Virus record (IMG/VR): IMGVR_UViG_3300045988_141143
Length of the DNA stretch: 64,000 nucleotides
Reading direction: 5' to 3' (one strand)
Source: a virus
Each line of letters opens with the position of its first letter. Positions within the stretch are counted from its first letter, which is position 1. Shown here piece after piece: positions 56,471-64,000 of the stretch. The position numbers and the translations under genes are program-made. The notes under the pieces are model-generated. The model did no database searches. It was not told where the DNA came from and worked only from the letters and a program-made list of their open reading frames with translations.

Positions 56471-57142
56471 TTACAAGAACACTGGCAGTCTGCGCCACAC
56501 GCCTCCGTTCGGCTGAAACTCCTCATGCCATTCCCGATATTCCACTTCAAACTTTGCACCATAATAAGCCAAACCTTTGAGAGGTAGGCTCTTGATATAT
56601 TTCTCCTGCTCCTCACGAGTCATAAAGTCGTTAGGCATGAGAATGATGCGATTGCTACGGACATGAATAAAGAACTCTATCGCAAAATTACTATTCGTCA
56701 GCATTCTCTTAATCGCGTCATAGTCCCACTTGCCTTTAGGCGAAAAGTTTATGCCATCCACATAAGGGTAAAAACGTTCGGGAAAGTTGTTTATATCCAC
56801 GTTGGCAAACATCCATCTACCAGAAGTGTAGATATAGAGCTGCTTGATGTTAGGATAATCATGGCGCAGGTGTGAGCATATATCTATGATACCAGTCACA
56901 TAGAATGGGTCTCCACCAGTAAGCATAACAGTATGTGCTGCCTTCAACTCCTCTACAGTTGCCACAGGCACCGTATCGAGGTCGTACTGCTTGTTGCAGT
57001 ACACGGGACAGGAGTTAGTACATGTACGGTTAATAATCAAGTGTATGGCTTCCTTATCGGAGCCCGGCTCGTCAGCATATTTACGTTTTGTTTCCATTAA
57101 CTTTTTCATATCTATATGTATTAGTTTTATTACTTCTAACAA
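56471..57142 (-). CDS. Radical-SAM-like 4Fe-4S protein (NrdG/QueE-like activase size), non-canonical Cys spacing
   Basis: CTNSCPVYC has Cx3Cx3C spacing rather than Cx3Cx2C. Followed by VMLTGGDPF, which resembles the glycine-rich SAM-binding motif. Confidence 0.35.
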   Translation of the reverse strand: MLEVIKLIHIDMKKLMETKRKYADEPGSDKEAIHLIINRTCTNSCPVYCNKQYDLDTVPVATVEELKAAHTVMLTGGDPFYVTGIIDICSHLRHDYPNIKQLYIYTSGRWMFANVDINNFPERFYPYVDGINFSPKGKWDYDAIKRMLTNSNFAIEFFIHVRSNRIILMPNDFMTREEQEKYIKSLPLKGLAYYGAKFEVEYREWHEEFQPNGGVWRRLPVFL

Positions 57143-57259: not shown

Positions 57260-58363
57260 TCAGGGTGTGGTGACTCTGGAGCTGCCCGATGGGTTGTCAG
57301 ATACTTCTTGGCTCTTCTGCTGTTCCTTTACCGCACTGGACGCAGGCTTCTCATAAATATCGAACTTGCGTGTGGTTGGACACCAACTGATTCCGGCGGC
57401 GTGCAGCGCATTGTCTATTGTGATTTCAGTCGCAAGATCGGCTGGAATGATAGACAGAGGAACGCCACCTTGATAGAGGTGGTCGAGATAGATACACGGT
57501 CCAAAGTATATGCCGTTATTAAAACCAATAAAGGTCATGCTGTAATCTAAACCCCTAATGTCTTTGTTTTTCTTTACCATGGAATGCAGGTGGATGGTTC
57601 TGCTCTCCACATCGTAGCAGTTGAAGATAGCTGCATAAGAAGCCAGTCCGCAGCCAGGCCTTGCGTAGGTAAGCTCTACGTACTGACCAGTCTTGAATGC
57701 CGGAAGGAGCTTATAACCTTTACGACTGGAGAAAAGACGACCCGTAAACTTTTCTATTTTACGGTAAAGCTCTCGGGTGTCTTCTTCGTTGAGCTTGCTG
57801 TAGCTATTGACGGAAATCTTACACTTTTCGCCATCCGAGGTCTTGGGGCATTCCTCTATACTCTGAATTTCTGAATATCTGTCCTCAAATACTTCCACCA
57901 GCGGAGTAAAGGTGTTATAATCATCATTGTTTACCTTATCGACAATAAAGAATGGGCCGTCGTATTCGTAAGGACGTCTCACTACCGTGCCCTTGCGCCA
58001 TGTAAGCACGTCCCATTTCGCTTTACTTGGATTGGGATGTATCACGCAGTCGGAACCTAAAAGGTCTGAGATTTCGATGTTTCCTACCTTGAGTTTCAGA
58101 CAGCCCTCCTTATTGAACGTAAGGTAGGCGGTCTTTGGGTCGGCTTTTTTATCGGCGATGGCACAGAAAATCTCGTCATCCGTCACGTCTATCAACGTCA
58201 TCCAACCGCACAGGTCGCACCACACTTGCATTCCTACCCTGCCGTATTGAAACAGAACCTCCTTCACGTTCTCTAAATTTCTCTGGCTCATAATATATAC
58301 ATTTAATAAATTGATTAAACATGCTGTTCTCTTTACTGGTCGCTGTCCGAACATCAACGCCAA
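57260..58363 (-). CDS. Hypothetical protein
   Basis: 367 aa. An alternative start at 58291 (MSQRNLENV) is possible. Confidence 0.35.
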   Translation of the reverse strand: MALMFGQRPVKRTACLINLLNVYIMSQRNLENVKEVLFQYGRVGMQVWCDLCGWMTLIDVTDDEIFCAIADKKADPKTAYLTFNKEGCLKLKVGNIEISDLLGSDCVIHPNPSKAKWDVLTWRKGTVVRRPYEYDGPFFIVDKVNNDDYNTFTPLVEVFEDRYSEIQSIEECPKTSDGEKCKISVNSYSKLNEEDTRELYRKIEKFTGRLFSSRKGYKLLPAFKTGQYVELTYARPGCGLASYAAIFNCYDVESRTIHLHSMVKKNKDIRGLDYSMTFIGFNNGIYFGPCIYLDHLYQGGVPLSIIPADLATEITIDNALHAAGISWCPTTRKFDIYEKPASSAVKEQQKSQEVSDNPSGSSRVTTP

Positions 58364-58409
58364 TCCACGAGCCGCTACATGGCGTTCATCTCATCCCACT
58401 TCTTCTTCA

Positions 58410-59048
58410 TCACTCATCGGCGGGAAAGCTGATCTTTGCATCTGCCAGTCTTTTCTTGCAGATCACACCAAGGCCTTCAATGACACCCAAACATGAGCTA
58501 CAATCCAAACAGTAAGCATAGCCAATCATGGCGCTAACGGTATTGTATGGGCATTTCTCCCCCTTTATCGCATAAAGGTGTTTGTCCTCCATAAAGGCGT
58601 GGATTTCTTTTTTTAACCCATTCAGTATTTTGTTCTCTCTTTCCAGCTCGTCGCAATGGTCGCGCATCTGCTGCATCTCAACAAGCGACTGCCTTGACTC
58701 GCGCTCCTCCTTACTGCCCAACTGGTGAGCGACATCGTTGTAATCATCCGTGAGCTTATGCACAAGCTGCTCAAGTTCTCCGTTCTTTCTTTCCAGCTCA
58801 TCACAATGGTCGCGCATCTTCATCATCTCGCCAAGCGTCTGCTTGGAAGAGTTTTCATCCTTGCGTGCCTCCAGTCCATGCTGTTGGCGCACGGCATCGT
58901 TGTAATCGTCCATGAGCTGATGCACACGTTGCGTCATCTCAATGTTCTCTGCCTTCAAGTCGGCTACGATATAGGAAAGAGCCAACATACGTTTGTTTTC
59001 TTCTGTTGTCATTGTTTCTTGGGTTTTATGTTTGTTATTCATATTCAT
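58410..59048 (-). CDS. Coiled-coil protein with an internal ~40-aa tandem repeat and a C-terminal Cys cluster
   Basis: Repeat units HQLMDDYNDAVRQQHGLEARKDE...MRDHCDELERKNGELEQLV and HKLTDDYNDVAHQLGSKEERE...MRDHCDELERENKIL. C-terminal CPYN...CLDCSSC. Confidence 0.4.
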   Translation of the reverse strand: MNMNNKHKTQETMTTEENKRMLALSYIVADLKAENIEMTQRVHQLMDDYNDAVRQQHGLEARKDENSSKQTLGEMMKMRDHCDELERKNGELEQLVHKLTDDYNDVAHQLGSKEERESRQSLVEMQQMRDHCDELERENKILNGLKKEIHAFMEDKHLYAIKGEKCPYNTVSAMIGYAYCLDCSSCLGVIEGLGVICKKRLADAKISFPADE

Positions 59049-59213
59049 ATACTATATGCGATGTGGTATTGCCCAGTCCGTCGCGAGGGTCGGTAATACC
59101 TATCCCGACCATTGTCGTCACGGCATTGGCTATCTGCTTGCGCGGTCGACTCTTTACGAGGCCCTTGCCGTCCTTGCCGCTGCGTACCCAACCGATGTAA
59201 TACTTGTCAATCA
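59034..59213 (-). CDS. Small ORF (59 aa) ending VYEYE, overlapping both neighbours by ATGA-type junctions
   Basis: MIDKYYIGWVRSGKDGKGLVKSRPRKQIANAVTTMVGIGITDPRDGLGNTTSHIVYEYE. ATGATTGA and ATGAATATGAATAA overlaps. Confidence 0.25.
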
Positions 59214-60019
59214 TCGGTCTGTGGTATGGTCAGATACATTCGTTCATTAGCCTTGCACGACTCCCCTTGCATTCTACCTGCCTCTAACCCTGCTTTCTTT
59301 AGAGCTTCGTCACGCTCATGCTCCAGTTTTATGCAATATTCAGTCAGGCGATTATATTCTTTCTGCAAGGCGTTGAAATCCTCGCGCAGTTGCTCGGGAG
59401 TGTGAGTTTCTGAATCTAATGGCACAAGACGCTGCTTTCTCTTGTCCCATATTTTCCCGATTCTCTCCACGGCATTGTTGAGAAGTTTTTCTTCCGTAGG
59501 CGTGGCGTATCTCAGTTCGATGCTTACTTCTTCTGCGCATGTACCGAGAAGATCAAGATGGACGTTAGGAGTAAGTTCGTCGCTGTTTTTGCACAAGCAG
59601 GCGTATGTTCTTATCTTGGGATAAGAATCTATAAAATCCACTTCATTGAAAATCACAATGTAGGTCAGGATGTTGCCATCTTTATTTTTAATATCCATTG
59701 CCACGATGTCGCCGGGCTGGAAGTTGAGCACATTCCAATGCCGGTAAAGATGCGAGAGAAACAGCATACACTCTCCTTTTTCAAAGTTCGCTAAACGCCC
59801 ATTGCAACGAAAAAGAATGTAGTGTGCTTCATCCTCGTCAGGAATGGAGGGACCCACCAAAATACCCGAAGCGTTTGTTTCTTTCACATTCAGATAGCCA
59901 AACAAAGGTGAGTAAAGCGTGTCACCTTCAGTCAAGCCGTAGAGGAAGGCTGCCATTTTTTCAATCTCGAATAATTTAGCTTTTATCTCAGGGATGCTTC
60001 TTGTTGCTTTTTGTTTCAT
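59207..60019 (-). CDS. Hypothetical protein
   Basis: 270 aa. Confidence 0.35.
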   Translation of the reverse strand: MKQKATRSIPEIKAKLFEIEKMAAFLYGLTEGDTLYSPLFGYLNVKETNASGILVGPSIPDEDEAHYILFRCNGRLANFEKGECMLFLSHLYRHWNVLNFQPGDIVAMDIKNKDGNILTYIVIFNEVDFIDSYPKIRTYACLCKNSDELTPNVHLDLLGTCAEEVSIELRYATPTEEKLLNNAVERIGKIWDKRKQRLVPLDSETHTPEQLREDFNALQKEYNRLTEYCIKLEHERDEALKKAGLEAGRMQGESCKANERMYLTIPQTDD

Positions 60020-60072
60020 AATGTCTCTATTTTAAATTATCACTCATATTCTATCTTGTGATGTTATTCATA

Positions 60073-60363
60073 TTACCCTTTTTCTACTAATTCCCAGGTC
60101 TTTTCATCGTGAGAGGAATAGACGGTATAGGTAAGTTCACAACAGTTCTTGGCTGTCCTCACTTCATGCAACATTTCTCTCGTATAGAAGCAACGCTCCA
60201 TAAGGTACGCCAATGCCTTAAACTGGTCTTGAGTAAGAAAGACCTCCTGCTCGCCGCAAGTGATACCAACATTATCAGTAATGGTAGAATAGAAGAGCTT
60301 TACGTCCTCTTCCTTCCCTGTGTCCTCGTTCTTTACGATTATCTTTTCTGTATTGAAACTCAT
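60073..60363 (-). CDS. Hypothetical protein
   Basis: 96 aa. Confidence 0.3.
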   Translation of the reverse strand: MSFNTEKIIVKNEDTGKEEDVKLFYSTITDNVGITCGEQEVFLTQDQFKALAYLMERCFYTREMLHEVRTAKNCCELTYTVYSSHDEKTWELVEKG

Positions 60364-60503
60364 AATTTATTTCTCCTTTTATAATTCAACAAACACGCAA
60401 ATTCCACCACTTGCAGCGATCAGTGCGTTTACAAGCTTACTCCCATCCTCGCCATTCGAGCCGATGGCTAACGGGATGCACGGAAATGTAGATGTGGGTC
60501 ATG

Positions 60504-60965
60504 TTACTCTTGAAGATACTCGCCGTATAGTTTCCACTCCTTATCATGGATGTTGCCGACAACCTCAAAGCTCTTCATCTTCTCTTGCAAGAGATCATCT
60601 GGGATGCCGTCTTCAAGACCACCTACGTCAGAGTAGGGATTTTTTACCGTAACGATACCAAAGCAAGCTTTCTTCTCACAATAATACACTACGGCATAGT
60701 AGTCGTCGCAAGTATTGTATTCGATTCTGCTATACGGATATTCGTTCGATCGCAATACGTCGCCTTCATAAATCTCCTTGCCGTTCTTGTCGGTGAAGCC
60801 AGTGAACTGGCATACAGTAGAGGGGTCAACAGCAAACGTAAAAACAGGCCGTCCATCACTGACTGGATTATTTTTTACGAGAGTCTGGTCACCCACATGG
60901 GACAAATCGCCGTAATTCCACTTCCCGTCCTCTATACTCTTAGCCTTAAACTTAATTGTTCTCAT
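60504..60965 (-). CDS. YopX-family phage protein
   Basis: MRTIKFKAK...GKWNYGDLSHV and FTGFTDKNGKEIYEGDVL match the YopX N-terminal signature. Confidence 0.55.
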   Translation of the reverse strand: MRTIKFKAKSIEDGKWNYGDLSHVGDQTLVKNNPVSDGRPVFTFAVDPSTVCQFTGFTDKNGKEIYEGDVLRSNEYPYSRIEYNTCDDYYAVVYYCEKKACFGIVTVKNPYSDVGGLEDGIPDDLLQEKMKSFEVVGNIHDKEWKLYGEYLQE

Positions 60966-61125
60966 AATTCTCTATTTTAAATTGTTACTCATATTCTATC
61001 AATACAATGGTGTGCTGTCCGTGCTCGTCGTAGAGTCCTGCCATCCGTCGTAGCGGGCGGACAATGCCGTGGAATACCCCCGACGAGGGCAAAGCTGGGA
61101 TGTGCGTAACACGAAAGGAATTTGG

Positions 61126-61296
61126 TTACACATAATCGGGATTGAAAAATATGCCATTTACACCTTCAATATCGATGGTGTTTCTGTTACAGTCAAAATC
61201 AGCATCACAAAACTCGTCGCCATTGACTGTTACTTCCAATTCGCCATGTTCTTTACGCAAAAGTTCAAGGCGGTTTATAAGTTCGCTTATATTCAT
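61126..61296 (-). CDS. Small ORF (56 aa)
   Basis: MNISELINRLELLRKEHGELEVTVNGDEFCDADFDCNRNTIDIEGVNGIFFNPDYV. Preceded by an upstream fragment ending ALIEYL*. Confidence 0.2.
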   Translation of the reverse strand: MNISELINRLELLRKEHGELEVTVNGDEFCDADFDCNRNTIDIEGVNGIFFNPDYV

Positions 61297-61306
61297 ATTA
61301 TTTTCT

Positions 61307-61928
61307 TTACAAATATTCTATCAATGCCATATTATCCTTGCCTACTGACGTAAGGGTGTTGGTTGTACTTCCCCCGTTTATCTCCATTCGCTGACAGAAG
61401 CGTCCGTTGGAGGGATGCTTGCGGTCGGACGGATTGTCGGGGTCACGGCCTCGGAAGGCTGCTATGCGAAAGTGTAGCATAGGAGGTTGTCTTTTGTTAC
61501 TGTTGTTATCGAATTGCTCCACGCCCACGGACTTGGGCGGTGATACTTGTCGCTGTATTTGCACCCTCCCCGGTCGCCATGTTCACGACGGAAGGTTTTG
61601 GCTTCCTCGGTGCGGTAGTGGACGAGGACGGAACGATTAATCATACTCTATCAATATTTTCGGTTTATCCACGTCGTGACCTTTACCTCCCCCGGCTATG
61701 CACAAGGCTATGCCGCGCGGCGACACGATGATGCCGTTCTGCGAGGGGCTGTAGGAGCCGAGGATGATGGGGCGAGGGTTGTTATTCATATATTACAATT
61801 ACGCCAGTGGCTTTGAAATTTGCTCCTTGGGTTGAAACGTCAAGAACATCGTATGCACCCTTCTTGAAATAATTGGCTTTGATAGTGCGTGATGTGCCAT
61901 CGGATTCGGTGTTGAAAGGGAATGTCAT
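61307..61928 (-). pseudogene. Chain of overlapping small ORFs resembling C5-methyltransferase target-recognition-domain fragments
   Basis: Translations include GIIVSPRGIALCIAGGGKG (compare M.HhaI STRGIAITLSAYGGG) and GGSTTNTLTSVGK (TL motif). Stops and starts overlap as ATGAATAA and ATGATTAA. ORFs at 61782-61928, 61637-61789, 61462-61644 and 61307-61564. Confidence 0.3.
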
Positions 61929-62103
61929 AATTCTACTGCTACAAAGAACACGTCGCTGCAATCGGTGCGCGACATGATAGTTACTGCTATACCGTGAAAT
62001 GCTCCGTTGAAGCGTTCTGCGCTGAACATCGAGGCAGGGCAGGTGAGCAAACTACCCCCCAATCATATCAGCTATGATACGGATTACACGGTCGGGTGGA
62101 TTA

Positions 62104-63419
62104 TCAGTTCTCATTCTTCCTCTCCATATTCTCCTTGAACATTTCTCCGAAACCATCCCAATAATGAGCGTCCATCCATTCGGGCGAGGATAAAAACTGC
62201 TCATACATCATTGTCGCAGGTATCGTCCGTAGGTATTTCTCGCAAGCCTTAACGTCTTTGTCCCACAAATCCATCCGCTCCATTTCTATCTGAAAATACG
62301 TCTTGAGGAACATTGCCGCCTCATGTGTCGGTGGCAGGTCGAATTGAAGGAATAAGGCATTGTCGGAGTCGTTTGCCTTGAGGAACTTGCTCACGGCATC
62401 GTCCTTGAGGAAATAGCGGTCAGACACTTCCTCTTCGAGCACGTCTTCCAATCGGGTAAGCAGCTCGAAAGGTTCTGGGAACTGATAGTCGAATGCCACG
62501 TCTCGGCGCATGGAGAGGCAGAACACACGGTCGCGGTTTTGTGGCACACCGTAGTTCTTGGCGTTGAGTCGCGTCCAACGGCTCACATAGCCGAGCGACG
62601 AGAGTTTGTCGAGCCACTTCTGAAAGTCTGGCAAGAACTTCTGGCTTACCAGTGCCGCCACGTTCTCCTGCAAGAGATACTTCGGGCGAAGCACCTCCAC
62701 AGCATCCGCCACACGCCAAAGCAGTGCGCTTCGGGTGTCGCTGCCCTCCTGCAAGCCCATTTGCTTGCCCGCCTGACTGATGTCCTGGCAAGGCGAGGAA
62801 TAGGTGAAGAGGTCTACTTCGCGGCCTTCGAGCGAGCTTTCCACCTCGTGCCAGTCAATCTTGGTGATGTCGCCCAGGGCGCAGTCGGCAAACTGAGGGA
62901 AGACGAGGTTGTGCATCTGACAGGCGTATTTGTCGATGTCGCTCCATCCTATACATGTCCATCGGAAGTCGGGATGCCACTCGCGGAGCACATCGGCTGC
63001 CATAAGCTGCGAGTCGTAGCCGAAGAACGTGGTAAGGAATATCTTCTCCTCGTTCTTGTTGGCTGCGGTGGGCGGCAGGGCGGGTAATGTGTCTTCGAGG
63101 TCGTCGAAGAGCGAGAGTTGCTTTTGCTTACGAGGTTTGGGCGTAGGATAGAAAAGTTGCTCGTAGATGTGGGCCAACACGTCCACCACGATGCTGTTTC
63201 CGGCTTGCTTGTACTGCTGTGAGGCAGATATAGCCATGTCTTCGGGCTTGCCCTTGCCTTTCCAGTCGGGCAGACGTTCGGCTGCTTGAGCATTGCTGCT
63301 CTGCATCGTGCCGATTACATTGTCACGAACGCCATCAGACGAAAACACTCCTTGGGTGTGAGCTTGCGGATGGCATAGCTCTTGATGGTGCGGTCGGTGA
63401 AATTGAGTTTTGTAATCAT
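62104..63419 (-). CDS. DNA (cytosine-5)-methyltransferase with motifs IX-X at the N-terminus and an apparent frameshift
   Basis: Motif IX RKLTPKECFRLMAF lies in an ORF starting at 63419 and ending at 63315. The next frame carries motif X YKQAGNSIVVDVL, then SSPCQDIS (PCQ), LQENVAAL (ENV), QNRDRVF, and a TRD start DVAFDYQFPEP...VSDRYFL. Confidence 0.55.
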
Positions 63420-63432
63420 ATTGTTGCTGTTA

Positions 63433-63585
63433 TTATTCGTATTCTATTAAAATTCCTGGAGCATGATTATCTGCCTTGACGCATCTATTTATTCCTTCTA
63501 ACGGAGGTCTTTTATAGTCAGGCGAAACATTCCAATAAATGCTCGATATTGCATGAGCGTGATAGTCTATTGTGATGTTATTCAT
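63433..63585 (-). CDS. Small ORF (50 aa) ending ILIEYE
   Basis: MNNITIDYHAHAISSIYWNV...PGILIEYE. Its start overlaps the upstream ORF stop (ATGAATAA). Confidence 0.25.
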   Translation of the reverse strand: MNNITIDYHAHAISSIYWNVSPDYKRPPLEGINRCVKADNHAPGILIEYE

Positions 63586-63709
63586 ATTCTTCAATCAAAA
63601 ATACATTTTGCTGCCACGAGTTGATTGTTACGGTCGGGCAAACGTCTGTACCTAATCGACCTCCATCGTTATTGCCACGAGGATATTGGTAGAAGTCAAG
63701 ATTAATCAT
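63578..63709 (-). CDS. Small ORF (43 aa), C5-methyltransferase TRD-like fragment
   Basis: MINLDFYQYPRGNNDGGRLGTDVCPTVTINSWQQNVFLIEEYE. CPTVT resembles the sPTLt TRD motif. Confidence 0.25.
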   Translation of the reverse strand: MINLDFYQYPRGNNDGGRLGTDVCPTVTINSWQQNVFLIEEYE

Positions 63710-63718
63710 ATTCTTCAA

Positions 63719-63976
63719 TCAAAAGAACGCTTCAGATTGCAAGTCGCCAATATAACAATAACGCTGCACTTCGTATTCGCTGATAAACATTCGCCAATTC
63801 TGTTCGTCATGATCGAAATGTTCATGTACGAAGCATGTACCACCGAGTCGCCAACAGAGAAGCGATCCTATGCAATGCGGTTGTTCTCTGGCTGGATGCC
63901 ATAACTGAACGATATTACGATATTCGGCTCTTTTATCCGTTTCTACATCGTCAGACAAGGAATCCTTAAAGCTCAC
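63719..63976 (-). CDS. Hypothetical protein
   Basis: 85 aa with several His/Cys. Confidence 0.3.
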   Translation of the reverse strand: MSFKDSLSDDVETDKRAEYRNIVQLWHPAREQPHCIGSLLCWRLGGTCFVHEHFDHDEQNWRMFISEYEVQRYCYIGDLQSEAFF

Positions 63977-64000
63977 GCCTTTTTTATCGGAATCGACAAA

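What the first reader, a model, noticed from the sequence alone, without database searches (positions are those of the whole stretch)
59030..63710. Family of small overlapping ORF cassettes bounded by conserved ATGAATAAC starts and ..IEYE* ends, with a collapsed 50-nt scar at 60020-60072
At least seven junctions on the minus strand reuse nearly the same sequence, GATAGAATATGA(A/G)TAA or TTGATTGAAGAATATGA(A/T)TAA. In each, the upstream ORF ends in (I/V)(E)Y(E/D)* and the next starts MNN or MIN, with the ATG inside the stop region. Examples are 59034, 59048, 61637/61644, 61782/61789, 63433, 63578/63585 and 63709. At 60020-60072 only the start (ATGAATAACATCACAA) and the end (GATAGAATATGAGTGATAA) of a cassette remain fused, which looks like a deletion scar. 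Two longer ~35-nt copies (TCTCTATTTTAAATT..ACTCATATTCTATC) precede the 270-aa gene and the YopX gene. The conserved boundaries could be substrates for cassette gain and loss (PeSL-like shuffling in T4-type phages is the analogy) and would enforce translational coupling.
Basis: seen in the sequence. Interest (0 to 1): 0.65.

Follow-up and report, generated by a model that had tools for sequence, protein, structure and literature searches.

The report
Phage methyltransferase with separate specificity minigenes
The repeated "cassettes" are real: each is a 43-60 codon gene for one DNA-recognition module of a cytosine methyltransferase whose catalytic core, encoded in the middle of the array, has no such module, so this gut phage seems to run one enzyme with about ten exchangeable specificity subunits, which I found described nowhere.

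Summary
GAATATGANTAA-type junctions occur 8 times on the minus strand of 59035-63713, against 1.15 expected in the whole window.

- ORF 63419..62104 is a circularly permuted C5 DNA methyltransferase core (motifs IX-X-I-IV-VI-VIII) with no target recognition domain (TRD).
- The small ORFs ending in (L/M)IEY(D/E)* are single TRD modules. They are homologous to the tandem TRDs inside one-piece multispecific C5 methyltransferases.

In 80 related viral contigs the core is flanked by a median of 10 such minigenes, from more than 20 families. They are chained by 8-nt (ATGAnTAA) or 4-nt overlaps and are under purifying selection (dN/dS 0.07-0.25).

The junction sequence follows from the conserved last strand of the TRD, the overlapping start and stop, and A/T-biased codons that leave the junction unstructured.

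The PeSL analogy does not.

My best model, which is inferred and not shown, is that the TRD peptides dock onto the core in trans and give many specificities against host restriction.

G-runs in the arrays vary in length. In this window they break the core and two cassettes.

The parts
63702..63722 (-). Orphan cassette tail (..LLIEEYD*) in an alternative frame at the 3' end of the upstream non-methyltransferase gene. It supplies the overlapping ATG of the next minigene.
   Evidence: (D12)
63578..63709 (-). TRD minigene, family G08, 43 aa (MINLDFYQYPRGNNDGGRLGTDVCPTVTINSWQQNVFLIEEYE). Intact.
   Evidence: Present in 53 ORFs of related loci. dN/dS 0.20. Its HMM hits internal segments of long proteins retrieved with the G03 TRD profile.
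63433..63585 (-). TRD minigene, family G20, 50 aa (..ADNHAPGILIEYE). Its start overlaps the stop of G08 by 8 nt. Intact.
   Evidence: dN/dS 0.25; 12 of the long G03-profile proteins hit, best iE 6e-14
62104..63419 (-). Catalytic core: a circularly permuted C5 DNA methyltransferase (motif IX RKLTPKECFRLMG, X QAGNSIVV, I FFGYDSQ, IV SPCQD, VI ENV, VIII QNRDR) with no TRD, plus a C-terminal helical extension. In this window it is broken by a 1-nt deletion (GGG to GG) at about 63333.
   Evidence: (PF00145, E 1.3e-49)
61925..62114 (-). TRD minigene, family G00 (tail ..FVAVEL*). Its start overlaps the core stop by 11 nt. In this window a G6 tract (62055-62060) brings a stop into frame; L001 has G8 there and an intact ORF.
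61782..61928 (-). TRD minigene, family G13, 48 aa (..SRTIKANYFKKG..GVIVIYE). 4-nt overlap with G00. Intact.
61637..61789 (-). TRD minigene, family G02, 50 aa (MNNNPRPIILGSYSPSQNGIIV..KPKILIEYD). Intact.
   Evidence: dN/dS 0.08
61462..61644 (-). TRD minigene, family G06, 60 aa (..HYRTEEAKTFRREHG..SNSITTVTKDNLLCYTFA). Intact.
   Evidence: 41 of the long G03-profile proteins hit
61307..61480 (-). TRD minigene, family G03, 57 aa (MLHFRIAAFRGRDPDNPSDRK..NTLTSVGKDNMALIEYL). A conserved 19-nt overlap with G06. Intact.
61126..61296 (-). 56-aa non-TRD gene inserted in the array. It is absent at this position in L001. Its stop overlaps the next ATG by 8 nt.
60985..61133 (-). TRD minigene, family G04 (..GLYDEHGQHTIVLIEYE*). 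It is frameshifted in this window by TGGG to TGG at about 61041; 51 related loci have TGGG.
60969..61000 (-). First ~32-nt composite repeat: the G04 tail plus the generic gene-start motif, just upstream of the YopX-like gene.
   Evidence: (D4)
60504..60965 (-). YopX-like gene (153 aa). A non-TRD passenger inside the array.
60379..60502 (-). Second scar: the start of a G14 cassette (MTHIYISVHPVSHRLEWRGW) joined to the tail of a G07 cassette (..KLVNALIAASGGICVFVEL*).
60073..60363 (-). 96-aa non-TRD passenger gene. In relatives it usually sits in the array upstream of the core, after G07.
60040..60071 (-).
   Evidence: (D14)
60024..60055 (-). Second ~32-nt composite repeat: a cassette tail plus the generic gene-start motif, just upstream of the 270-aa gene. 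Its 3' half overlaps the scar above.
   Evidence: (D4)
59207..60019 (-). 270-aa non-TRD passenger gene. Its stop (GATGATTGA) overlaps the next minigene's ATG by 8 nt.
59035..59214 (-). TRD-like minigene, family G05, 59 aa (MIDKYYIGWVRSGKDG..GLGNTTSHIVYEYE). Intact. Last cassette of the array.
   Evidence: (dN/dS 0.20)
58410..59048 (-). 212-aa repeat-containing gene whose start (ATGAATATGAATAAC) overlaps the tail of the last cassette. This is the end of the coupled chain.
   Evidence: (D1, D6)

Best explanation
The region is a split, multispecific cytosine-C5 DNA methyltransferase system of a gut phage. The host is probably Prevotella.

One gene encodes a circularly permuted catalytic core. Motifs IX-X are fused in front of motifs I-VIII, so the chain starts and ends where the target recognition domain (TRD) would normally sit. 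The core contains no TRD.

On both sides of it, on the same strand, lie 43-60 codon minigenes. Each encodes one TRD module of the kind that one-piece multispecific methyltransferases carry in tandem.

The minigenes are read one after another from a single transcript. Each stop overlaps the next ATG (ATGAnTAA or ATGA) in an A/T-rich, unstructured junction, so a terminating ribosome can restart.

Each TRD peptide then docks non-covalently into the gap between the two ends of the core. Its conserved last strand (h-I-E-Y-D/E) lies next to the core's N-terminal segment that leads into motif IX. Each peptide directs methylation of its own target sequence.

A phage with about 10 minigenes would therefore methylate about 10 motifs and escape many host restriction enzymes.

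The array changes by gain, loss and occasional relocation of whole minigenes, with breakpoints in the conserved junctions. Variable G-runs may switch single modules on and off.

Shown here: the identity of the core and the modules, the lack of a TRD in the core, the operon-like chaining, purifying selection, and indels at the junctions.
Inferred, not shown: separate translation, assembly in trans, one specificity per module, anti-restriction benefit, and phase variation.

The confidence of 0.55 is for the whole model including assembly in trans. For the identity of the parts alone it is about 0.95.
For: The core:
- It matches PF00145 at E 1.3e-49.
- Against M.MpeI (4dkj), core residues 192-350 align to chain residues 116-277 (motifs IV-VIII) and residues 15-49 to chain 333-367 (motif IX). 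The order is therefore permuted.
- 69 of 80 relatives carry MITK..-PCQD-QNRDR in a single ORF.
- The 28 cassette HMMs built find nothing in 71 cores (all iE above 1 with filters off), yet find 2-4 tandem modules in each of seven long control proteins (PF00145 matches; three span all or most of the domain, the others only its C-terminal part).

The cassettes are TRDs:
- A profile of the 57-aa cassette at 61307-61480 hits 1033 representative proteins.
- 9 of 10 long hits tested are PF00145 proteins.
- In P0242 and P0256 the module lies between motif VIII and motif IX.
- HMMs of about 20 other cassette families hit other internal segments of the long proteins retrieved with that profile.
- In the one-piece enzymes the modules also end in h-h-h-E, for example VVEP and VLEQ.

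They are real genes:
- dN/dS is 0.07-0.25 in frame for 17 families, and pN/pS is about 1 or above (0.83-2.9) in shifted frames.
- The 57-aa protein exists as more than 100 clusters of constant length.
- 376 of 494 cassette ends have an ATG 5 nt before the stop that opens a further ORF.
- The 8-nt and 4-nt overlaps are the commonest spacings.
- There is a median of 10 cassettes per locus.

The junction:
- Tail codons are biased beyond what the protein needs. TAT is 97% against 57% background, ATC 1% against 35%, and TTR for Leu about 88% against 31%.
- The junction is unstructured.

Against read-through:
- All three stop codons are used, and the next frame differs between junction types.
- No tRNA gene is present in the window.

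Against: - No experiment or structure shows that a free 43-60 aa TRD peptide binds the core.
- AlphaFold2 on the core gave a poor model (mean pLDDT 42.5), because the available alignment was shallow. No multimer prediction was possible.
- Engineered [X-I..VIII] + [TRD-IX] fragments of M.MpeI and M.SssI did not complement (PMC5944983), so assembly in trans is not automatic.
- Motif I of the core is FFGYDSQ/FSGYDSQ rather than the canonical FxGxG.
- In this window the core and two cassettes are frameshifted, so this copy may be inactive or mis-assembled.
- Unrelated genes (YopX-like, 270 aa, 96 aa, 56 aa) sit inside the array, which a dedicated enzyme operon would not need.
Confidence: 0.55

Rival explanations
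1. The junctions are conserved mainly as DNA. They would be short recombination sites, analogous to PeSL, that shuffle unrelated small ORFs, and translational coupling would be a side effect.
For: Cassettes are gained and lost cleanly at the junctions. A few families (G34, G39, G40, G45) occur on either side of the core. Tail codons are more uniform than the protein requires. Two scars join the start of one cassette to the tail of another.
Against: The tail is a protein feature shared with TRD modules of one-piece enzymes. The ATG and stop follow from the Y-D/E-stop codons. There is no stem-loop and no excess of promoter-like sites. Cassette order is largely collinear between phages, so there is little true shuffling. 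The ORFs are not unrelated: they are all TRDs.
Confidence: 0.15
2. The array is the wreck of a one-piece multispecific methyltransferase that accumulated stop codons. On this view the small ORFs are non-functional relics.
For: In this window the core and two cassettes are frameshifted and three cassette remnants are present. Tandem duplication followed by truncation is a plausible origin for the permuted layout.
Against: 17 families show strong purifying selection, with starts and stops conserved across 80 loci whose cores are 65-99% identical. 69 of 80 cores are intact. Thousands of intact cores of constant length 436-451 aa exist. Overlapping start/stop architecture dominates over simple in-frame stops.
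Confidence: 0.07
3. The stops are bypassed by frameshifting, hopping or read-through, so that the cassettes and the core are made as one polyprotein equivalent to a one-piece multispecific enzyme.
For: Module order (TRDs, IX-X-I-VIII, TRDs) resembles a duplicated one-piece gene. The overlaps place the next frame within reach.
Against: 8-nt overlaps need a +1 shift and 4-nt overlaps a -1 shift, while other junctions have gaps of +2 to +30 nt. All three stop codons are used. The junctions have no slippery sequence or stimulatory structure. No suppressor tRNA gene is present. Ten or more consecutive recoding events would give a negligible yield.
Confidence: 0.04
4. The TRD peptides are made but work without the phage core. 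They might cap a host methyltransferase, block restriction sites, or act as small DNA-binding regulators.
For: They are independent ORFs under selection. Some lie several kb from the core, separated by unrelated genes.
Against: They always occur with a TRD-less core on the same strand in one coupled chain. A TRD module alone has no catalytic or known independent DNA-binding capacity (established knowledge of C5 methyltransferase structure, not tested here).
Confidence: 0.1

Closest known systems
Multispecific C5 methyltransferases of Bacillus phages (M.SPRI, M.Phi3TI, M.Rho11sI, M.H2I), and the uncharacterised multi-TRD PF00145 proteins found here (P0124, P0179, P0242, P0256)
   Same: They are phage-encoded. 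Several short TRD modules are each thought to give one target sequence. The modules are homologous to the cassettes here and end in the same h-h-h-E strand. The presumed role is protection from many host restriction enzymes.
   Different: In those enzymes all TRDs are in one polypeptide between motifs VIII and IX. Here each TRD is its own ORF with its own start and stop, and the core has none.
Natural circularly permuted C5 methyltransferases (M.BssHII, M.Alw26I, M2.Eco31I, M.Esp3I, M2.BsaI; PMC5944983)
   Same: Motifs IX-X come before motifs I-VIII, and the permutation point lies in the variable region.
   Different: Those enzymes keep their TRD in the same chain and have one specificity. This core has no detectable TRD.
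Naturally split C5 methyltransferases (M.AquI alpha/beta; M.EcoHK31I alpha/beta) and engineered split M.HhaI, M.SssI and M.MpeI
   Same: Activity is reconstituted from separate polypeptides split at or near the variable region (the M.EcoHK31I and M.HhaI details are from my own knowledge).
   Different: Those have two fixed halves and one specificity. The piece carrying the TRD also carries conserved motifs. None has a library of alternative TRD-only subunits.
Type I and Type IIB specificity (HsdS / S) subunits, including multi-hsdS phase-variable loci
   Same: A catalytic methyltransferase takes its sequence specificity from a separate, exchangeable subunit. Several alternative specificity genes lie side by side.
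   Different: Those are N6-adenine enzymes with two-TRD S subunits of 400 aa or more. Switching is by inversion or recombination between hsdS copies, and the genes are not homologous to these.
T4-type PeSL (promoter-early stem-loop) mediated gene shuffling
   Same: Short repeated sequences between small phage genes coincide with the boundaries of gene gain and loss.
   Different: PeSLs are intergenic promoter plus stem-loop elements. Here the repeat is coding sequence plus an overlapping start and stop, with no stem-loop and no excess of promoter-like sites.

Membership tests
C5 cytosine DNA methyltransferase (PF00145) | Score above the Pfam gathering threshold | tested here: met
   169.9 bits against a cut-off of 22, for the core with the 1-nt frameshift repaired. 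Relatives are pre-annotated PF00145.
C5 cytosine DNA methyltransferase (PF00145) | Catalytic motifs IV (PCQ), VI (ENV), VIII (QxRxR), IX and X (GNSV-like) | tested here: met
   SPCQD, QENV, QNRDR, RKLTPKECFRLMG and QAGNSIVV are read directly in the sequence.
C5 cytosine DNA methyltransferase (PF00145) | Canonical motif I, FxGxG (AdoMet binding) | tested here: inconclusive
   The family has an invariant F-(S/F)-G-Y-D-S-Q, in which the second Gly is replaced. The best-scoring Pfam stretch starts at profile position 23.
C5 cytosine DNA methyltransferase (PF00145) | Intact reading frame in this window | tested here: not met
   A 1-nt deletion in a G run at about 63333 splits the gene. The 98.4%-identical L001 and 69 of 80 relatives are intact.
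Circularly permuted C5 methyltransferases (M.BssHII type) | Motifs IX-X N-terminal to motifs I-VIII | tested here: met
   Alignment to M.MpeI in two pieces in swapped order, and direct reading of the motifs.
Circularly permuted C5 methyltransferases (M.BssHII type) | TRD retained in the same polypeptide | tested here: not met
   No cassette or TRD HMM hits any of 71 cores (iE above 1), while the positive controls are hit. The C-terminal 70 residues are predicted helical.
Multispecific phage C5 methyltransferases (SPR / phi3T type) | Several different TRD modules serving one catalytic domain | tested here: met
   7 intact and 2 broken TRD minigenes around one core in the window. Median of 10 per related locus, from more than 20 families. 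Homology to TRD modules of multi-TRD enzymes.
Multispecific phage C5 methyltransferases (SPR / phi3T type) | TRDs contiguous in one polypeptide between motifs VIII and IX | tested here: not met
   Every module is a separate ORF with its own ATG and stop, usually in a different frame from its neighbour.
Multispecific phage C5 methyltransferases (SPR / phi3T type) | Each TRD confers methylation of a distinct target sequence | not testable with these tools
   This needs methylome or enzyme assays.
Split (heteromeric) C5 methyltransferases (M.AquI type) | Activity needs two or more separately encoded polypeptides | not testable with these tools
   Inferred only, from a TRD-less core plus TRD-only ORFs. 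No multimer prediction was available, and the AlphaFold2 model of the core was poor.
PeSL-type recombination elements (T4) | Intergenic early promoter plus stem-loop repeated between genes | tested here: not met
   The junctions are coding, are less structured than cassette interiors (MFE -4.1 against -10.6 kcal/mol), and promoter-like hits are not enriched (11 against 8.0 +/- 2.9).
Simple-sequence (homopolymer) phase-variable methyltransferase loci | Homopolymer tracts within the coding sequence whose length varies between close relatives and changes the frame | tested here: inconclusive
   G tracts of 7 or more are about 25 times enriched in the arrays and vary in length in 27 of 36 flank-matched sets. 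Their per-tract indel rate is 7-15 times that of A/T tracts in near-identical pairs. Sequencing error cannot be excluded, and no within-population data were available.

The most novel reading that the evidence does not exclude
A natural C5 DNA methyltransferase takes its sequence specificity from a library of exchangeable 43-60 aa TRD peptides supplied in trans. This would be the cytosine-methylase counterpart of HsdS subunits, but far smaller. Individual modules would be switched on and off by hypermutable poly-G tracts, giving each phage population a combinatorial, phase-variable methylome.
Probability: 0.4. Interest if true: 0.9.

Novelty: new variant of a known kind. Interest (0 to 1): 0.78.

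Why it matters
C5 cytosine methyltransferases are generally treated as single-chain enzymes whose specificity domain is built in. The known exceptions are a few two-piece enzymes and the one-piece multispecific phage enzymes.

Here the catalytic core has no TRD and is surrounded by about ten separately encoded TRD modules. The layout is conserved under purifying selection in thousands of gut-phage contigs. It implies that specificity can be supplied as a small plug-in peptide.

If that is true, three things follow:
- Abundant gut phages that probably infect Prevotella would have a way to protect their DNA against the many restriction systems of their hosts, and to adapt by gaining or losing a 150-nt gene.
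- The annotation of thousands of 'hypothetical' 45-60 aa phage proteins would change.
- There would be a natural template for programmable m5C writers: one core with swappable 50-aa recognition peptides.

It also gives a concrete case in which the sequence of a gene junction is set jointly by protein structure, translational restart and cassette turnover.

Tried and rejected
- Pfam on the small ORFs found nothing. They are too short and variable, and homology appeared only with family profiles.
- A nucleotide search of annotated phage genomes gave only a 67-nt YopX match. No close annotated relative exists.
- A PDB search with the TRD profile found nothing meaningful.
- AlphaFold2 on the core with 35 homologues at 86-95% identity gave mean pLDDT 42.5. 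Only the C-terminal helices were confident. I did not run fold searches on this model.
- Rfam found no RNA family in 58000-64000. The promoter and terminator scans were at background. No tRNA gene is present in the window. I therefore rejected recoding, RNA elements and alternative genetic codes.
- The genome-collection scan gave only 7 metagenome-bin contigs with inconsistent taxonomy: 2 Prevotella, the others Oscillibacter, an uncultured Oscillospiraceae bacterium, Clostridium, Anaerobutyricum and one unclassified bacterium. The host assignment stays tentative.
- Six full-text literature searches and three papers found no description of stand-alone TRD genes for C5 methyltransferases. The Trautner 1996 paper on TRD organisation is not held.
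- An inversion or shufflon mechanism is unlikely. All cassettes are in direct orientation, none of the ten neighbouring ORFs scanned against PHROGs matched a recombinase, and every cassette ends in a stop, so deletion would not create fusions. I did not run an inverted-repeat search.

Full report
**1. The observation.**
On the minus strand of 59030-63710 the window carries a chain of small ORFs whose stops and starts share one junction. GAATATGANTAA with at most 1 mismatch occurs 10 times in the 64-kb window, and 8 of these lie on the minus strand between 59035 and 63713. Dinucleotide-preserving shuffles give 1.15 (maximum 4).

The similarity reaches 14-24 nt (repeat families D2, D3, D7 and D12). 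The 19-nt exact repeat 60056-60074 = 63570-63588 ties the 'scar' to the start of the cassette at 63585.

**2. What the ORFs are.**
A three-frame translation shows that the 414-aa ORF inside the array (62104-63348), together with the short ORF 63315-63419, is a C5 DNA methyltransferase with its motifs in the order IX-X-I-IV-VI-VIII. With one G restored it matches PF00145 at E 1.3e-49.

Against the solved M.MpeI structure it aligns in two pieces in swapped order. It is therefore circularly permuted, like M.BssHII and a few others (PMC5944983).

A scan of IMG/VR found 144 relatives, of which 80 loci were kept. In 69 of them the gene is one ORF starting MITKLNFTDRTIKSYAIRKLTPKECFRLMG, that is, directly before motif IX. 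More than 7800 homologues of 436-451 aa exist in the protein collection. They are named cytosine methyltransferase of Caudoviricetes, and once of Prevotella sp..

The small ORFs end in (L/M)IEY(D/E) and contain strings typical of C5 target recognition domains, such as CPTVT, NTLTSVGKDN and TIKANYFKKG. Three results establish what they are:
- A profile of the 57-aa cassette at 61307-61480 (alignment A1) hits 1033 representative proteins. Nine of ten long hits tested are PF00145 proteins. In P0242 and P0256 the module lies between motif VIII and motif IX, often next to other modules.
- HMMs of about 20 further cassette families hit other internal segments of the long proteins retrieved with that profile.
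- The 28 cassette HMMs I built find 2-4 tandem modules in each of seven long control proteins with PF00145 matches (three span all or most of the domain, the others only its C-terminal part). They find nothing (iE above 1, filters off) in 71 phage cores.

The cassettes are therefore single TRD modules of the multispecific type, and the core has none. The modules in the one-piece enzymes also end in a hydrophobic strand plus Glu (VVEP, VLEQ, and LEY before motif IX in P0134). The conserved tail is thus an inherited protein feature.

**3. Are the minigenes real?**
Across the 81 loci, 494 ORFs end in such tails (TAA 302, TGA 136, TAG 56). In 376 of them an ATG lies 5 nt before the stop and opens another ORF of at least 25 codons. 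An 8-nt overlap (ATGAnTAA) is the commonest inter-ORF spacing (406 cases) and a 4-nt overlap is next (175).

For 17 cassette families dN/dS is 0.07-0.25 in the annotated frame, with overlap codons excluded. In shifted frames pN/pS is about 1 or above (0.83-2.9). The 57-aa protein occurs as more than 100 clusters of constant length, all unnamed or 'hypothetical'. Full-flank loci carry a median of 10 cassettes (range 2-16) from more than 20 families.

In the window there are:
- seven intact cassettes (63578-63709, 63433-63585, 61782-61928, 61637-61789, 61462-61644, 61307-61480, 59035-59214);
- two frameshifted cassettes (61925-62114, 60985-61133);
- three remnants (63702-63722, 60379-60502, 60040-60071).

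**4. Why the junction looks the way it does.**
The codons Tyr-Asp/Glu-stop (TAT GAx TAA) contain ATG in the +1 frame.

Codon choice in the tail is more uniform than the protein requires:
- TAT 97% against 57% background;
- ATC 1% against 35%;
- TTG/TTA about 88% of Leu against 31%.

Windows of 50 nt around the junctions have 37% GC and a mean MFE of -4.1 kcal/mol. Cassette interiors have 53% GC and -10.6 kcal/mol (p about 1e-85). This fits termination-restart coupling in an organism without strong Shine-Dalgarno use, which is an inference on my part. It does not fit a stem-loop element.

Promoter-like and terminator-like sites are at background. No Rfam family matches. No tRNA gene is present in the window.

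**5. Cassette turnover.**
About 50 different configurations show one cassette present between two others in some loci, while those two are joined directly with the usual overlap in others. Examples are G02-[G45]-G06 (5 against 35 loci), G04-[G19]-G05 (7 against 14) and G13-[G23]-G02 (8 against 13). Order is largely collinear, but G34, G39, G40 and G45 occur on either side of the core.

The window and L001 are 98.4% identical over 2.7 kb, and similarity stops inside the ..ATTGATA.. tail of the 57-aa cassette. The window then has an extra 56-aa gene. It lacks two genes that L001 has after the next cassette, where the break falls right after TTGATAGAATATGA.

The two ~32-nt copies are a cassette tail plus a generic gene-start motif (AAAAyATAGAGAnnn-ATG). 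That motif precedes YopX-like, 270-aa and 212-aa genes in many genomic positions.

The scar at 60040-60071 is a G20-type start fused to a cassette tail. Where the preceding gene is identifiable, 6 relatives have an intact cassette before the 270-aa gene, and L001 carries the same scar.

**6. Mechanism.**
My best model is a core enzyme plus exchangeable TRD subunits. The permutation puts both ends of the core at the place where a TRD is normally inserted, so a free TRD module could fill that gap. Its last strand would lie next to the N-terminal segment of the core that leads into motif IX.

[quoted passage not shown] One engineered permuted split did not (PMC5944983). Assembly in trans is therefore plausible but unproven.

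I could not model the complex. AlphaFold2 on the core alone gave mean pLDDT 42.5 with the shallow alignment available. Only the C-terminal helical extension, roughly residues 366-433, was confident.

I consider the rivals less likely, for the reasons given in their entries:
- a recombination-site-only reading of the junctions;
- a decayed one-piece gene;
- a recoded polyprotein;
- peptides that act without the core.

My confidence in each step is:
- identity of the parts, about 0.95;
- separate translation, about 0.8;
- specificity supplied in trans, about 0.5.

**7. Comparison with known systems and novelty.**
The closest systems are:
- the multispecific Bacillus-phage methyltransferases (same modules, but in one chain);
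- the permuted C5 enzymes (same topology, but with their own TRD);
- M.AquI and M.EcoHK31I (split, but with two fixed parts);
- HsdS subunits (same logic, but unrelated proteins).

Six full-text searches found no description of stand-alone TRD genes for a C5 methyltransferase. The library does not hold most subscription journals. I rate this a new variant of a known kind.

**8. Caveat for this window.**
Three frame-breaking differences from relatives are all shortened G runs:
- core, GGG to GG at about 63333;
- first downstream cassette, G8 to G6 at 62055-62060;
- G04 cassette, TGGG to TGG at about 61041, where 51 of 51 relatives have TGGG.

These may be real inactivation, phase variation, or homopolymer errors in the assembly.

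Noticed in passing
Loci L001-L080, within 1.5 kb upstream and 2 kb downstream of the core; window 62055-62060: Poly-G tracts of 7 or more on the coding strand are about 25 times denser in the TRD arrays (0.51-0.54 per kb) than in the flanks (0.02 per kb); poly-C is not enriched. Tract length differs between loci with identical flanks in 27 of 36 sets (A tracts 11 of 30). In near-identical locus pairs the per-tract indel rate of G tracts is 7-15 times that of A/T tracts. This looks like phase-variable switching of single TRD modules, but sequencing error is not excluded.
   Followed up: partly
window about 63333, 62055-62060 and about 61041: The core and two cassettes are frameshifted in this window. 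Each time a G run is shorter than in relatives. Three out of three in G runs suggests either systematic homopolymer miscalling (possibly at methylated sites) or slippage.
   Followed up: partly
window 60966-60985 and 60020-60040; many positions in L001-L080: A generic motif, AAAAyATAGAGAnnn, lies directly before the ATG of many non-cassette genes (YopX-like, 270-aa, 212-aa, G18, G70) wherever they occur in these phages. It is probably a translation-start or promoter element of this phage group.
   Followed up: no
window 60379-60502: A second deletion scar. The first 20 codons of a G14 cassette are joined to the last ~19 codons of a G07 cassette, just upstream of the 96-aa gene. In relatives the block G14-G07-96aa sits upstream of the core, so it seems to have been copied downstream here.
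   Followed up: partly
window 62104-62370 (core residues about 350-438): The C-terminal ~85 residues of the core lie outside the methyltransferase domain match. They are the most variable part of the core among relatives and the only part AlphaFold2 predicts with confidence, as a helical bundle (pLDDT 72-90). This is a candidate docking platform for the TRD peptides.
   Followed up: no
window about 63010-63030 (core motif I): Motif I reads F-(F/S)-G-Y-D-S-Q in the whole family instead of FxGxG. I could not judge whether this variant binds AdoMet normally.
   Followed up: no
window 61462-61480: The G06 cassette always ends ..LLCY(T/V)FA*. The G03 (or G30) cassette then starts 19 nt before its stop in 42 junctions across the loci. 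This is a different, but equally conserved, coupling geometry.
   Followed up: no
window 58410-59048: The 212-aa gene that closes the chain contains two ~150-nt internal direct repeats (81 nt at 78% and 48 nt at 81% identity) encoding a repeated ..DDYNDV..MRDHCDELERxN.. unit. It has no PHROG match.
   Followed up: no
window 56471-57142: A 223-aa ORF with a CxxxCxxC-like string (CTNSCPVYC), reminiscent of radical-SAM activases. Its only match is a weak hit to a PHROG of unknown function.
   Followed up: no
L101-L107: Near-identical phage cores sit in metagenome bins labelled Prevotella (2), Oscillibacter, uncultured Oscillospiraceae bacterium, Clostridium, Anaerobutyricum and 'bacterium'. These are probably phage contigs mis-binned into bacterial MAGs, so host labels for this phage group should be treated with care.
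   Followed up: no
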